Positions 48,001 through 51,000 of a DNA stretch of 63,989 nt are shown here, piece by piece; positions within the stretch are counted from its first letter, which is position 1; every line of letters begins with the position of its first letter. This DNA comes from Rhynchobatus australiae (taxonomy: Eukaryota). The DNA lies in assembly GCA_034780895.1 (NCBI GenBank), contig JAUZTB010000027.1:12059641-12123629 (forward strand), given 5' to 3'. Made by a program: the position numbers.

Positions 48001-51000
48001 GTTCCAAAGACTCCTGACGTTCTGAGAGAAATAAATTGCCTCTATCTTAAATGAATAACTTATTCTTAACCTTAAATTTGCAACCACACAAAAAGCGCTG
48101 GAGGAACTCAGCAGGTCGGGCAGCATCTATGGAGGGAAATAGACGGTCAACATTTTGGGTCGAGACCCTTAAGCTCGACTGCAAGCAAATGGGACCAGCT
48201 CAGATAGACACGTTGGTCAACCTGGACGAGTTGGGCCGATGGGCCTGTAGCCGTGCTGCATAACACTGACTCAATAAATAACATTGCGAAGTTTCCTAGT
48301 TATGTGCTGCACCTGCATGCTAACCTTCTGGGAATTCTGCCCCAGGACACCCAGGTCCCTCCGCATCTCAGAGCTCTGCAATCTTTCGCCATTTAGACAG
48401 CATGCTCTGTTTTTATTTATTTTTTCCTACCAAAATGGACATTTAACATTTTCTCATACTCAATTTGCCAGATCCTTACCCACTCACTTAACCTCTCCAT
48501 ATCCCTTTGCAGTATCCTGTCCTCTTCACAACGTTCTGGAATAAAACATACATGAAATGTAGGAATTACTCGGCGGGTCAGACAGCGTCGGTGCAGGGAG
48601 ATACTGATTTAACACTTTCAGGATCGGGGTTCTGATATAAAGTCATCGCCCTGCAGCATTAACGCTTTCCATACCTCTACCTTTGTGTTTCTACCAACCA
48701 CGATTAACCCTTCCATTTCTAACTTGGCTCTTCCCCCACCCCTCCCCACCGCCCTGAACTCAAACAAGATTCACCCTGCACCCCCAACCACTTCCAATCC
48801 ACCTAGTCCTTCCTACCAGCACTAACCCTACCGCTCCCCAACTCTGCACTGAACTCCATTTGGATTTCGCTTCTCACATCCGAGTTGAAGTGTCGCGTTT
48901 CCAAGCAACTTTCGGTCTTCACACCTGGTCCCTTGATGTGTTTTGCTTAAATGTTGCTGCTAATTTGTGGTCCCAGCCAGAATTAACCGGACTCTGCCTA
49001 ATTTACTGGTTGCTGCGCCGAGTGCTTTAAATTTTAAAGAGGTGCCCGCCCCCTTCTCTTCCTCCCTCCTGTTACACGCCTGGGACTCTTCGTCGATTGG
49101 GGTGTTGCGAAGACTTGATCGTCATCCGCGTCACTGCACTTTGAGCCCAGATCCCTCCGTAGGCTGTTTAATGTATTTCCCCGCCGTTTACATAGGAATA
49201 GGTTCCGCAGTGCTACGGCAGGCACGGAGTTATCCAGGCGGACCACAGAAAAAAAAAATGATGTGGTTTTAGGTTCCCCAGCATAGAGGTCCCGGCCCAT
49301 CGCTTGCAAACCCGGTCCAGCCTTTGCTCGACTCGCCTACCATCCATGGAGAAGCCGGCGGTGCATTCGAGTCTGTGCATCCCGCGGAACTTCAGCTGCA
49401 CGGCCGGGCTCAACGGCAGCTTGGCCGAGGAATACGCCGGCTGCGGGGTGGACGGAGGGCTCGACTGTCACCCCCGGTGTCAGCAGCCGGAGAGGAGCCG
49501 AGAAGGACCCGGCAGCTGCGGCGGTCACCCCAGCCCGGGTCAACGCAGGAGGGCCAAGTCGTTGCCAGCCCCCGCCGAGCGAGGAGCCGCCTCTTTGGAG
49601 AAAGCCCCCGTCTGCCGGGCCAGCACGAAGACCGTCCGCTTCGCAGACTCCTTGGGCTTGGAGCTGACCACCATCAGGCACTTCTGCGACGCTGACATGC
49701 CCCAGATCCCGCACCGGGTCATGGCCAGGCTGAGGACGGAGCGACCCGAGCGCCTGCTCTCCGCCGACGTGATGGGCGTCCTGTTGGACGACCCAGCCCA
49801 CACCCTGCAGCCCACGTTCAGCAACCCCGTCAGCTGCCCCGGCTTCCTGGAGAGGGTCAGGAGGGACAAGGTATGCCTGGAGTCCATCTCCACCGACCAC
49901 TTCAGCCTGCTGGGGCTGATCAGGGTCTCCAACGTCGCCTACGAGAAGCAGGTGGTGGTCAGGTACACCCTCAACCAGTGGACCTCTTACGTGGACATCG
50001 GAGCCAACCACAGCGCCCACTCTGCGGACGGCCAGACCGACACTTTCTGCTTTAAACTGGTCACCCCGCTCTTCCTGGACACGGGTGGAACTCTGCAGTT
50101 CGCCGTCCGCTACTCGGTGGCCGGGCAGGAGTTCTGGGACAATAACAAAGGCCTCGACTACCAGGTAGTAAGTCACAAGGTCAAAGTCTCCCCACCCAAG
50201 GACTGGGAGAACGGCTGGATTCACTTCATATGAATCAAAAAGGAGAAAAGTTTCTTCACCGCGTCTGGGACGGTGGTGTTTGAGAGTCACATCCGGCCCT
50301 TCTCGTCTCCTGCGAGGTTTCGGTTTCTGTTTGAAGGTATTCAGTCGTGGGACCACCTTGAAAATTGGAAATTCTCCTGAACTGCTTCCGTTCAGTGTTT
50401 GTGGCGGGGGAACGTTGGTCTCGGTCACTGTAAGCCATAAGTTCAGTTTCAGTTCTGAGGTTGGGAGTGTCGGAGCTCTCTGTATGATCAGGTGTACATG
50501 AGTAGAAATCACCGACCTGCCGCGTTAATTTTTTGCCTCGGTCGCCACGGAGGCTGCCCGACCTGCTGAGTATGTGCAGCATTTTGTGTTTTAGTTAACC
50601 TGAGCAGTAAACGGGTGTAAGGGAAACCTGAAAGATTAACAATGCGAGACTACTTAAACAGCCACAGGGAGAGAGGTGGGGGCGGCTCATTTTCATCAAA
50701 ATTCCAAACTTGATCCTTGTTATAAACCCCTTTTTAAGTGCACTTTTAAGTTTCCAAATGGCACTTTTTGATTGACTGCTTGATCAGAGATTAATATAGC
50801 TAATTCCTAAGACTAGTACCATCTTTAGAAAAAAAACAATGATTCTGGATAACCTTTCCATCACTTCTGCAAACACATTGTAAGTGTACGTGCCACTTGC
50901 AACAAATGAATGCAGGCATCCATTGACTCCTGCCCCTTCCCAAAGCAAGGTTGCATTATCTGTCAATGCTTCAACGCGGTGACCAGAATAACTTTTCAGA

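What the first reader, a model, noticed from the sequence alone, without database searches (positions are those of the whole stretch)
49346..50233. PPP1R3D/E-type gene in the 16q-equivalent block: candidate ohnologue lost in mammals
Seen: an intact glycogen-targeting PP1 subunit mixing PPP1R3E-like features (IPRNFSC, GWIHFI) and PPP1R3D-like features (RRAKSLP..ER, P.FL..G....FAVRY), about 23 kb from C16orf46 and 40 kb from ATMIN. Established: human PPP1R3D is at 20q13 and PPP1R3E at 14q11.2. The regions 14q11/16q/20q/8q form a 2R paralogon (e.g. JPH, NDRG, TOX, MT-MMP families), and I know of no PPP1R3 gene at human 16q23. Inference: this is a separate whole-genome-duplication paralogue retained in cartilaginous fish, likely to be auto-labelled '3E-like'.
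Basis: partly seen in the sequence, partly recalled or inferred. Interest (0 to 1): 0.7.

Follow-up and report, generated by a model that had tools for sequence, protein, structure and literature searches.

The report
Third D/E-type glycogen-targeting PP1 subunit
This ray gene encodes a glycogen-targeting subunit of protein phosphatase 1 from an old, unnamed sister group of PPP1R3D and PPP1R3E that most fishes and amphibians keep and that was not seen in mammals or birds, so the gene called ppp1r3e in ray-finned fishes is probably not the counterpart of human PPP1R3E.

Summary
The ORF is real: window 49346..50233 (+) is one exon of 295 aa. It has a CBM21 domain, an RVxF PP1-docking motif, a 14-3-3-type RAKSLP site, a WDNN substrate motif and a WIHFI C-terminus.

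A maximum-likelihood tree of 96 named proteins gives three jawed-vertebrate clans:
- D: PPP1R3D, support 100/100.
- B: the gene NCBI calls PPP1R3E in reptiles, amphibians and coelacanth, plus a second chondrichthyan gene, support 97/95.
- A: the window gene, support 95/92, or 100/97 with one lizard.

Clan A holds chimaera, sharks, rays, 42 ray-finned-fish rows, coelacanth, lungfish and amphibians. Thirteen species carry both A and B; four carry A, B and D. AU tests reject placing the window's chondrichthyan group with B, with D, or as a lineage-specific duplicate.

"Retained in cartilaginous fish" is too narrow. The whole-genome-duplication and 16q origin remains untested:
- ATMIN is supported by 11 TQT motifs.
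- C16orf46 has only weak support.
- MPLKIP (human 7p14, recalled) lies between them.

No named mammalian PPP1R3E could be obtained, so "B = mammalian 3E" rests on NCBI names. The finding is of moderate interest: a new member of a known family.

The parts
49346..50233 (+). Single-exon coding sequence (295 codons plus stop) of a PPP1R3 D/E-type glycogen-targeting PP1 subunit, clan A
   Evidence: ORF and translation. Pfam CBM_21. 93% identical over 100% of its length to a 295-aa Pristis pectinata protein. It is the only PPP1R3-like locus in the window (tblastn). GC 0.643, GC3 0.864.
49379..49396 (+). N-terminal motif IPRNFS (residues 12-17), function unknown. Clan A has PRNFS; clan B has IPRNLS.
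   Evidence: the regex matches 21 of 34 clan-A rows (no ray-finned fish), 22 of 22 B rows, 3 of 25 D rows and 3 of 5 cyclostome rows.
49550..49567 (+). RAKSLP (residues 69-74): candidate phospho-Ser72 14-3-3 binding site
   Evidence: an RxxSxP match is present in 33 of 34 A rows, 22 of 22 B and 25 of 25 D. R69, K71, S72 and P74 are invariant in 31 clan-A proteins. The homologous RARS74LP of human PPP1R3D binds 14-3-3 (PMC4482762, abstract and passages).
49628..49642 (+). KTVRF (residues 95-99): RVxF-type PP1c docking motif, followed by AD
   Evidence: present in 34 of 34 A rows. K95, V97, R98, F99, A100 and D101 are invariant. It aligns with the PP1-docking region of PTG in 7qm2_B. R102VRF of human PPP1R3D is the functional PP1c site (PMC4482762).
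49856..50167 (+). CBM21 carbohydrate-binding module (residues 171-274), including VSNVAYEK (194-201)
   Evidence: Pfam E 8.6e-30. In the AF2 model, ten-residue block means of pLDDT are 75-95 (mostly 83-95) over residues 151-280. Foldseek best matches are PTG CBM21 7qfa_B (TM 0.89, rmsd 1.8 A), then 2eef and 2m83.
50135..50146 (+). WDNN (residues 264-267): core of the motif that binds glycogen synthase and phosphorylase in PPP1R3D
   Evidence: 33 of 34 A rows. W264, D265, N266, N267, G269 and Y272 are invariant. W267DNND of human R6 is needed for substrate binding (PMC4482762). The fifth residue here is K, not D.
50216..50230 (+). C-terminal WIHFI (residues 291-295), function unknown, shared by clans A, B and D
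   Evidence: 33 of 34 A rows, 22 of 22 B and 21 of 25 D. W291, H293, F294 and I295 are invariant.
49000..50500 (.). GC- and CpG-rich island over the 5' flank and the coding exon
   Evidence: GC 0.53-0.66 and CpG observed/expected 0.68-0.90 in 500-base bins. In the flanking bins (47000-48999 and 50500-51999) GC is 0.39-0.49 and CpG o/e mostly 0.41-0.66, falling to 0.16 at 51500. GC is about 0.37 in much of the window.
30075..30689 (+). Context: MPLKIP gene (single ORF), 18.7 kb upstream
   Evidence: Pfam PF15502, E 1.5e-13. The first ATG was located.
25706..26044 (-). Context: candidate C16orf46 exon (weak support)
   Evidence: Pfam DUF4529, E 0.015, 14.9 bits, below the cut-off of 27.
19773..20789 (-). 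Context: long open frame, possibly the large C16orf46 exon (unverified)
   Evidence: 338-aa stop-to-stop frame. No Pfam family even at E 10. No Atlas hit.
7610..9457 (+). Context: ATMIN/ASCIZ last exon (TQT-rich tail that binds LC8)
   Evidence: 11 TQT motifs against 0.51 expected. Human ASCIZ has eleven such motifs (PMC5963919).

Best explanation
What it is. The ORF is an intact, single-exon gene for a scaffold protein that brings the catalytic subunit of protein phosphatase 1 to glycogen.

How it works (inferred from motifs and from work on relatives; nothing was assayed).
- The disordered N-terminal half carries the RVxF docking motif (KTVRF) for PP1c.
- It also carries a Ser72 site (RAKSLP) of the kind that binds 14-3-3 when phosphorylated.
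- The C-terminal CBM21 module binds glycogen.
- The WDNN surface recruits glycogen synthase and phosphorylase.
- PP1 would then activate synthase, inactivate phosphorylase and promote glycogen storage.

Where it sits in evolution (shown here). It is a member of a third jawed-vertebrate orthogroup of the D/E subfamily, called clan A in this report. Clan A is distinct from PPP1R3D and from the gene named PPP1R3E in tetrapods and coelacanth. It arose before cartilaginous and bony vertebrates split. It is kept in chimaera, sharks, rays, ray-finned fishes (where it is the gene annotated ppp1r3e), coelacanth, lungfish, amphibians and perhaps a lizard.

Its absence from the other amniotes, mammals included, is inferred from the searches, not proven.
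For: Family and function.
- CBM21 by Pfam, by PDB sequence search and by Foldseek.
- all six motifs are intact and invariant or nearly so across 31 clan-A proteins.
- PMC4482762 shows experimentally that the homologous motifs of human PPP1R3D bind PP1c, the substrates and 14-3-3.

Orthogroup.
- of the best 120 of 214 hits, 86 carry names. They are chondrichthyans, ray-finned fishes, coelacanth, lungfish and amphibians; none is an amniote.
- a second chondrichthyan gene is seen in 8 rows. Its nearest non-chondrichthyan relatives are the plain 'PPP1R3E' of caecilians, salamanders, coelacanth and reptiles.
- careful ML tree of 96 named rows and 309 columns. Support is D 100/100, B 97/95, A 95/92 (100/97 with Sceloporus), and window plus Pristis 100/96.
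- AU tests reject chondrichthyan A with chondrichthyan B (dlnL 103.6, p 3.5e-35).
- AU tests reject chondrichthyan A with all B (53.8, p 1.8e-4).
- AU tests reject chondrichthyan A with all D (65.0, p 4.6e-6).
- AU tests reject chondrichthyan B with D (37.4, p 1.1e-4).
- after dropping 14 long or compositionally odd rows, SH-aLRT is A 98, B 99 and D 100.
- 28 of 28 further ray-finned-fish rows fall in A and 6 of 6 further reptiles fall in B.
- Thirteen species have both A and B on the tree. Four have A, B and D: Latimeria, Ambystoma, Rhinatrema and Pelodytes.
- In Ambystoma, Rhinatrema and Narcine the copies lie on records of different lengths.
Against: - No named mammalian PPP1R3E was available. 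The one likely representative, P0263 (279 aa), carries no name and comes only from read assemblies, so it was not used. That clan B holds mammalian 3E therefore rests on NCBI's names for 13 reptile rows and 6 of 7 amphibian rows, and on my recollection that human 3E has IPRNLS and RARSAP as clan B does.
- The groups for the AU tests were defined after the quick tree had been seen.
- The A-B sister relation is weak (71/41), and the cyclostome rows are long and poorly placed.
- Absence from amniotes rests on capped lists (120 of 214) and on 50%-identity representatives, of which only 30 were named.
- One lizard gene sits at the base of A on a long branch.
- The WDNN motif is followed by K, not the acidic residue of human R6.
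- No expression or binding data exist for this gene.
Confidence: 0.75

Rival explanations
1. It is simply the ray's orthologue of mammalian PPP1R3E. On this view mammalian 3E belongs to clan A, and clan B is the extra gene that mammals lack.
For: - NCBI names most shark and teleost clan-A proteins 'PPP1R3E'.
- No mammalian 3E was on the tree, so its position was not tested.
- The A and B motifs are similar.
Against: - Reptile and amphibian genes named plain 'PPP1R3E' all fall in B: 13 of 13 reptile rows and 6 of 7 amphibian B rows (the seventh B amphibian assignment, Hymenochirus, proved to be A).
- The same amphibians' clan-A genes carry '-like' names.
- None of the 86 named hits listed is a mammal.
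- Recalled only: human 3E has IPRNLS and RARSAP, the clan-B forms (one search gives the clan forms).
Confidence: 0.1
2. It is the cartilaginous-fish orthologue of PPP1R3D, as NCBI names the Pristis and Hemitrygon proteins.
For: - The two closest hits are named PPP1R3D.
- No chondrichthyan appears among the 99 named rows of the 120 best PPP1R3D hits, so the 3D slot looks empty in this lineage.
Against: - Clan D has 100/100 support without any chondrichthyan.
- Forcing the window's chondrichthyan group together with D costs 65.0 lnL, p-AU 4.6e-6.
- Coelacanth, salamander, caecilian and frog each have both a clan-A gene and a PPP1R3D.
Confidence: 0.02
3. The gene is an ancient paralogue, but it arose by a small-scale duplication or a later translocation. 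On this view it is not one of the 2R whole-genome-duplication copies belonging to a 16q-type paralogon.
For: - MPLKIP, a human 7p14 gene by recollection, lies between the C16orf46 candidate and this gene, so the block is not purely 16q-like.
- C16orf46 itself is only weakly identified.
- Pelodytes A and D lie on records of the same length.
- No synteny in any other species could be examined.
Against: - The three clans all predate the jawed-vertebrate crown.
- A lamprey-hagfish pair is sister to D (95/91), a timing that fits 1R/2R.
- ATMIN is well supported 40 kb away.
- MMP14, 15, 16 and 24 at 14q11, 16q, 8q and 20q are marked as lying in paralogous regions in PMC1867822 (table). With the recalled positions of 3E (14q11) and 3D (20q13), a third copy in a 16q-type block would fit.
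Confidence: 0.3
4. It is a duplicate specific to cartilaginous fish, born within chondrichthyans.
For: Sharks and rays carry two D/E-type genes.
Against: - Holding chondrichthyan A and B together costs 103.6 lnL, p-AU 3.5e-35.
- Bony-fish and amphibian orthologues group with the window's clade.
Confidence: 0.01

Closest known systems
PPP1R3D (R6), the human glycogen-targeting PP1 subunit
   Same: - The same architecture and motif order: RxxSxP 14-3-3 site, RVxF followed by AD, CBM21, WDNN and C-terminal WIHFI (motif functions from PMC4482762).
- Similar length (295 against about 300 aa) and a single coding exon here.
   Different: - A separate orthogroup (D 100/100; AU p 4.6e-6).
- 43% identity to coelacanth PPP1R3D over 237 residues (tblastn).
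- Clan A keeps the N-terminal PRNFS motif that most D proteins lack (3 of 25).
- RAKSLP here against RARSLP in D.
- WDNNK here against WDNND in D.
PPP1R3E as named by NCBI in reptiles, amphibians and coelacanth (clan B), presumed to include mammalian PPP1R3E
   Same: - The N-terminal [ILM]PRNxS motif, the RxxSxP site, RVRFAD, CBM21 and a C-terminal W[IV]HF[ILV].
- Possibly the sister clan of A, with weak support (71/41).
   Different: - A distinct clan (97/95).
- 41% identity to the Narcine clan-B protein.
- IPRNLS in 22 of 22 B rows against PRNFS in A, and RARS[AL]P against RAKSLP.
- Clan B held no ray-finned fish (none of the 47 ray-finned-fish rows placed: 42 fell in A, 5 in D).
- Apart from the one Sceloporus row, clan A held no amniote row.
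PPP1R3C (PTG/R5), PPP1R3B (GL), PPP1R3A (GM) and PPP1R3G
   Same: RVxF plus a CBM21 scaffold. These are the best solved structures by sequence and by fold.
   Different: Outgroups on the tree. The shark and turtle PPP1R3G rows lack the N-terminal motif and the WIHF C-terminus. The paper reports no 14-3-3 site in GL or PTG (PMC4482762).

Membership tests
PPP1R3 glycogen-targeting PP1 regulatory subunits | CBM21 carbohydrate-binding module | tested here: met
   Pfam E 8.6e-30. PDB sequence hits to PPP1R3C, 3A and 3B. AF2 plus Foldseek: TM 0.85-0.89 to PTG CBM21.
PPP1R3 glycogen-targeting PP1 regulatory subunits | RVxF PP1c-docking motif N-terminal to the CBM21 | tested here: met
   KTVRF at residues 95-99. 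Present in 34 of 34 clan-A rows. It aligns to the docking region of PTG in 7qm2_B. Only the sequence was tested; binding was not assayed.
PPP1R3 glycogen-targeting PP1 regulatory subunits | Substrate-binding WDNN(D/E) motif | tested here: inconclusive
   The FWDNN core is present and invariant. The following residue is K, not the acidic residue of human R6 or PTG (PMC4482762).
PPP1R3 glycogen-targeting PP1 regulatory subunits | Actual binding of PP1c and glycogen, and glycogenic activity | not testable with these tools
   No assay was possible.
PPP1R3D orthogroup | Falls inside the clade of named PPP1R3D proteins | tested here: not met
   D has 100/100 support without it. The AU test rejects the union, p 4.6e-6.
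PPP1R3E orthogroup (tetrapod type) | Falls inside the clade of reptile, amphibian and coelacanth genes named PPP1R3E | tested here: not met
   B has 97/95 support without it. The AU test rejects the union, p 1.8e-4.
PPP1R3E orthogroup (tetrapod type) | That clade contains mammalian PPP1R3E | not tested
   No named mammalian 3E was obtained. The candidate P0263 is unnamed and was not used.
2R ohnologue of PPP1R3D/E in a 16q-type paralogon | The duplication predates the jawed-vertebrate crown | tested here: met
   Clan A and clan B each hold both chondrichthyan and bony-vertebrate members. Clan D held no chondrichthyan, but a lamprey-hagfish pair is its sister (95/91).
2R ohnologue of PPP1R3D/E in a 16q-type paralogon | Lies in a block orthologous to human 16q23 (ATMIN, C16orf46, GCSH) | tested here: inconclusive
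   ATMIN is supported. C16orf46 is weak. No GCSH-like frame was seen by eye among the frames of 50 aa or more at 50.3-64 kb. MPLKIP intervenes.
2R ohnologue of PPP1R3D/E in a 16q-type paralogon | Conserved synteny of A, B and D with the paralogous blocks in several species | not testable with these tools
   No vertebrate genome collection was on hand. Genome contigs holds only bacteria and archaea.
14-3-3 client (as PPP1R3D) | An RxxpSxP site homologous to RARS74LP of human R6 | tested here: met
   RAKSLP at residues 69-74. S72 is invariant in 31 clan-A proteins. Only the sequence was tested; phosphorylation and binding were not.

The most novel reading that the evidence does not exclude
Jawed vertebrates began with at least three D/E-type PPP1R3 genes from the early genome duplications: 3D, 3E and an unnamed eighth family member in the ATMIN-C16orf46 (16q23-type) block.

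The three were then lost reciprocally:
- cartilaginous fishes lost 3D;
- ray-finned fishes lost true 3E;
- amniotes lost the third gene, perhaps bar some lizards.

If so, the gene studied or annotated as ppp1r3e in zebrafish and other teleosts is not the orthologue of human PPP1R3E. It is a gene with no human counterpart.
Probability: 0.4. Interest if true: 0.55.

Novelty: new member of a known kind. Interest (0 to 1): 0.4.

Why it matters
The PPP1R3 family is usually described as seven genes, A to G (for example PMC8956264, passages). A conserved eighth orthogroup, absent from mammals, would do four things:
- correct orthology tables and gene names in fishes, amphibians and sharks, where labels now alternate between 3D, 3E and '-like';
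- warn against using teleost 'ppp1r3e' as a model of human PPP1R3E;
- add a clean case of reciprocal paralogue loss after the vertebrate genome duplications;
- raise the question of what part of glycogen control non-amniotes handle with this extra 14-3-3-regulated subunit.

This refines a known family. It is not a new mechanism.

Tried and rejected
Neighbour identification.
- Pfam on the ATMIN and C16orf46 candidate frames found 0 families at E 0.01. At E 10 it gave only DUF4529 (E 0.015) and a chance-level RICH hit.
- The Atlas on the 338-aa C16orf46 candidate gave no usable hit.
- Upstream frames at 1-7700 and downstream frames at 50.3-64 kb were read by eye. I recognised no zinc-finger exon, no GCSH exon and no other exon.

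Mammalian PPP1R3E.
- The Atlas on Anolis PPP1R3E, meant to reach a mammalian 3E cluster, gave only generic family names.
- Name look-up of 30 representatives found no named mammalian 3E and no chondrichthyan 3D.

Literature. All the following were full-text searches.
- One search found no paper with 'PPP1R3H', 'ppp1r3e-like' or 'ppp1r3el'.
- Searches found no phylogeny of the D/E subfamily. Only titles and abstract starts were read, except where passages are cited.
- (NDRG paralogon) returned nothing.
- One search gave the metzincin paper used above.

Other checks.
- AATAAA scan: the first site on the + strand after the stop is at 54451, which is uninformative.
- blastn of the 27.7-28.4 kb element found no second DNA copy.

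Not done.
- No complex prediction was sent, because no PP1c or 14-3-3 sequence was held.
- Genome contigs was not scanned, because it holds prokaryotes only.
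Full report
**Observation**

The window holds an ATG-to-stop ORF at 49346..50233 on the + strand, 295 aa. No N lies inside it: the window has 22 N runs totalling 4303 bases, all elsewhere. None was filled.

The protein has a Pfam CBM_21 domain (E 8.6e-30, residues 171-274). Its best relatives among solved structures are PPP1R3C, PPP1R3A and PPP1R3B (E 4e-22 to 4e-19).

An AlphaFold2 model was built from 31 clan-A sequences (alignment A1). The mean pLDDT is 63.3.
- In the CBM21 part (residues 151-280) ten-residue block means of pLDDT are 75-95, mostly 83-95.
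- The first ~110 residues are below 50, as expected for a disordered docking region.

Foldseek puts the model on PTG CBM21 (7qfa_B, TM 0.89, rmsd 1.8 A), then on GL and GM.

The ORF is GC-rich (0.643, GC3 0.864) and sits in a CpG-rich island. It is the only PPP1R3-like locus in the window (tblastn with four family members). The coding sequence is one exon, so nothing had to be spliced.

**Neighbours**

Each frame was searched on its own.

- ATMIN. The 615-aa frame at 7610..9457 (+) has 11 TQT motifs, against 0.51 expected and at most 4 in 2000 shuffles. Human ASCIZ/ATMIN is described as having eleven LC8-binding TQT motifs (PMC5963919, passages). I accept it as the last exon of ATMIN.
- C16orf46. 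The candidate frames are 19773..20789 and 25706..26044, both on the − strand. Pfam gave nothing at E 0.01. At E 10 it gave only a sub-threshold DUF4529 hit on the second frame (E 0.015, 14.9 bits against a cut-off of 27). That DUF4529 is the C16orf46 family is my recollection. The Atlas gave nothing. C16orf46 is therefore plausible but weakly supported.
- MPLKIP. Between the C16orf46 candidate and the PPP1R3 gene lies an MPLKIP gene at 30075..30689 (+) (Pfam E 1.5e-13). The human gene is at 7p14 by my recollection. The block is therefore not purely 16q23-like.
- Downstream. I recognised no exon by eye in the frames at 50.3-64 kb.
- Distances.

**Relatives**

- Window protein as query. There were 214 hits, of which the best 120 are listed. 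The closest are Pristis pectinata (93%, named '3D'), Hemitrygon (81%, '3D') and Narcine (79%, '3E'). Sharks follow (61-68%, '3E'), then coelacanth ('3E-like', 52%), lungfish, gar, bowfin, sturgeon, bichir, many teleosts ('3E'), and salamanders, caecilians and frogs ('3E-like' or '3D-like'). Thirty-four of the 120 carry no name. None of the other 86 is an amniote.
- Exhaustive search of 50%-identity representatives. It gave 3439 hits at E 1e-3. Naming 30 of them revealed a second ray gene (Narcine '3E-like', P0126, 44% identical). It also revealed salamander 'PPP1R3E' genes distinct from the same species' '3E-like' genes, a lizard '3E-like' (Sceloporus), lamprey and hagfish genes, and outgroups.
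- P0126 as query. There were 361 hits, 120 listed. It has orthologues in Mobula, Rhinoraja, Cetorhinus, Pristiophorus, Heterodontus, Carcharodon and Chiloscyllium. Its nearest non-chondrichthyan relatives are the plain 'PPP1R3E' of caecilians, salamanders, coelacanth and reptiles.
- Coelacanth PPP1R3D as query. There were 274 hits, 120 listed, 99 of them named. It found tetrapod PPP1R3D, including named mammals, and gar, bowfin, sturgeon, bichir and a teleost. It found no chondrichthyan.

**Phylogeny**

The careful IQ-TREE run used 96 named rows and 309 columns under LG+C20+F+G4. One search was a quick tree, and one search was the unfinished first pass of the careful run. Support is given as ultrafast bootstrap / SH-aLRT.

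| Clan or group | Support |
|---|---|
| D (PPP1R3D) | 100/100 |
| B (tetrapod-type 3E plus the second chondrichthyan gene) | 97/95 |
| A (window gene) without the lizard | 95/92 |
| A with the Sceloporus lizard row | 100/97 |
| Window + Pristis | 100/96 |
| The four batoid clan-A rows | 100/100 |

AU tests of rival placements:

| Rows forced into one clade | dlnL | p-AU |
|---|---|---|
| Chondrichthyan A + chondrichthyan B | 103.6 | 3.5e-35 |
| Chondrichthyan A + all B | 53.8 | 1.8e-4 |
| Chondrichthyan A + all D | 65.0 | 4.6e-6 |
| Chondrichthyan B + D | 37.4 | 1.1e-4 |
| Sceloporus + B | 13.95 | 0.012 |

The groups were biological hypotheses, but I fixed their membership after seeing the quick tree.

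Two further checks agree with the three clans.
- Dropping 14 rows (5 cyclostomes, 2 chimaera rows, the lizard, Dallia, and 5 long or compositionally odd rows) left A 98, B 99 and D 100 SH-aLRT on a quick tree.
- On a FastTree of 131 rows, 28 of 28 added ray-finned-fish rows fell in A. All 6 added reptiles and a second coelacanth isoform fell in B.

Gene content by species:
- Thirteen species have both A and B.
- Latimeria, Ambystoma, Rhinatrema and Pelodytes have A, B and D.
- Ray-finned fishes were seen in A (42 rows) and D (5 rows) but never in B.
- Chondrichthyans were seen in A and B but never in D.
- Amniotes were seen in B and D. One lizard sits at the base of A.

Weak points of the tree:
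- The A-B sister relation has only 71/41 support.
- Cyclostome rows are long. One lamprey-hagfish pair is sister to D (95/91) and the rest are unresolved.

**The main gap**

One representative of the right length (P0263, 279 aa) has no name and comes only from read assemblies. It might be mammalian or human, so it was not used.

That clan B is the orthogroup of mammalian PPP1R3E therefore rests on two things:
- NCBI's names for the reptile and amphibian genes.
- My recollection that human 3E reads IPRNLS and RARSAP. Those are the clan-B forms; clan A has PRNFS and RAKSLP.

**Mechanism**

One search shows that the window protein keeps every hallmark of the subfamily:
- IPRNFS at residue 12;
- RAKSLP at 69;
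- KTVRFAD at 95;
- VSNVAYEK at 194;
- FWDNN at 263;
- WIHFI at 291.

Their key residues are invariant in 31 clan-A proteins.

For human PPP1R3D the homologous R102VRF, W267DNND and RARS74LP were shown to bind PP1c, the glycogenic substrates and 14-3-3 respectively. Loss of 14-3-3 binding gave hyper-glycogenic activity and faster lysosomal degradation (PMC4482762, abstract and passages).

I infer the same scaffold mechanism here. One difference is that K, not D, follows WDNN. Nothing was assayed.

**Origin**

All three clans predate the jawed-vertebrate crown. The link between cyclostome genes and D fits an origin in the early vertebrate genome duplications, but does not prove it.

PMC1867822 (table) lists MMP14, 15, 16 and 24 at 14q11-q12, 16q13-q21, 8q21 and 20q11.2 and marks them as lying in paralogous regions.

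No vertebrate genome collection was available. The following therefore stayed unchecked:
- synteny in other species;
- a tBLASTn of the C16orf46-GCSH interval;
- whether this very genome has separate 3D and 3E genes.

Supplements were closed too. Those of PMC13450315 (seen only as a search listing) may list this family.

**Novelty**

Full-text searches found no paper naming an eighth PPP1R3 gene or a '3E-like' gene. Searches found no phylogeny of the D/E subfamily; only listings were read, apart from the cited passages. A 2022 paper still describes seven genes, PPP1R3A to G (PMC8956264, passages).

The gene itself is annotated in many genomes under shifting names. What appears to be unreported is that it forms its own orthogroup.

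**Verdict**

- The finding is a new member of a known family.
- Interest is moderate.

Noticed in passing
window 30075..30689 (+): An intact MPLKIP gene (Pfam PF15502, E 1.5e-13) in its own GC-rich island (GC 0.72 at 30000-30499). It lies between the C16orf46 candidate and the PPP1R3 gene. The human gene is at 7p14 by recollection, so either this block was rearranged or the linkage is ancestral and was broken in tetrapods.
   Followed up: partly
window 17268..17739 (-) and 26801..28322 (-): Open frames with similar protein strings (both carry '...SAPMMRL.TPGHPRCP...') that look like copies of an interspersed repeat. There is no Pfam family and no DNA-level match at E 1e-10. The second lies next to an N run.
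   Followed up: partly
Proteins P0126, P0296-P0300: Clan-B proteins of sharks and rays mostly fail the VxNxx[FY]EK and [FY]WDNN patterns that clan A keeps. Eight of 8 chondrichthyan B rows lack the first and 6 of 8 lack the second. The tetrapod-type 3E of elasmobranchs may have a changed glycogen or substrate surface.
   Followed up: no
Protein P0132 (Sceloporus undulatus '3E-like', 353 aa): This is the only amniote row attached to clan A (100/97), on a long branch (0.80). It lacks the PRNFS and RAKSLP motifs. Forcing it into clan B costs 13.95 lnL (p-AU 0.012). It may be a fast-evolving survivor of clan A in lizards.
   Followed up: partly
Record lengths: In Pelodytes ibericus the clan-A gene and PPP1R3D sit on records of identical length (212,059,309 bp). 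In Dermochelys coriacea PPP1R3E and PPP1R3D do likewise (41,159,716 bp). In each species the two paralogues probably share a chromosome.
   Followed up: no
No chondrichthyan PPP1R3D was seen among the 99 named rows of the 120 best hits to coelacanth PPP1R3D, or among the 30 representatives that were named. Cartilaginous fishes may have lost PPP1R3D.
   Followed up: partly
window 7610..9457 (+): The ATMIN tail has exactly 11 TQT motifs, the number reported for human ASCIZ. The multivalent LC8-binding array appears conserved in number between a ray and human.
   Followed up: partly
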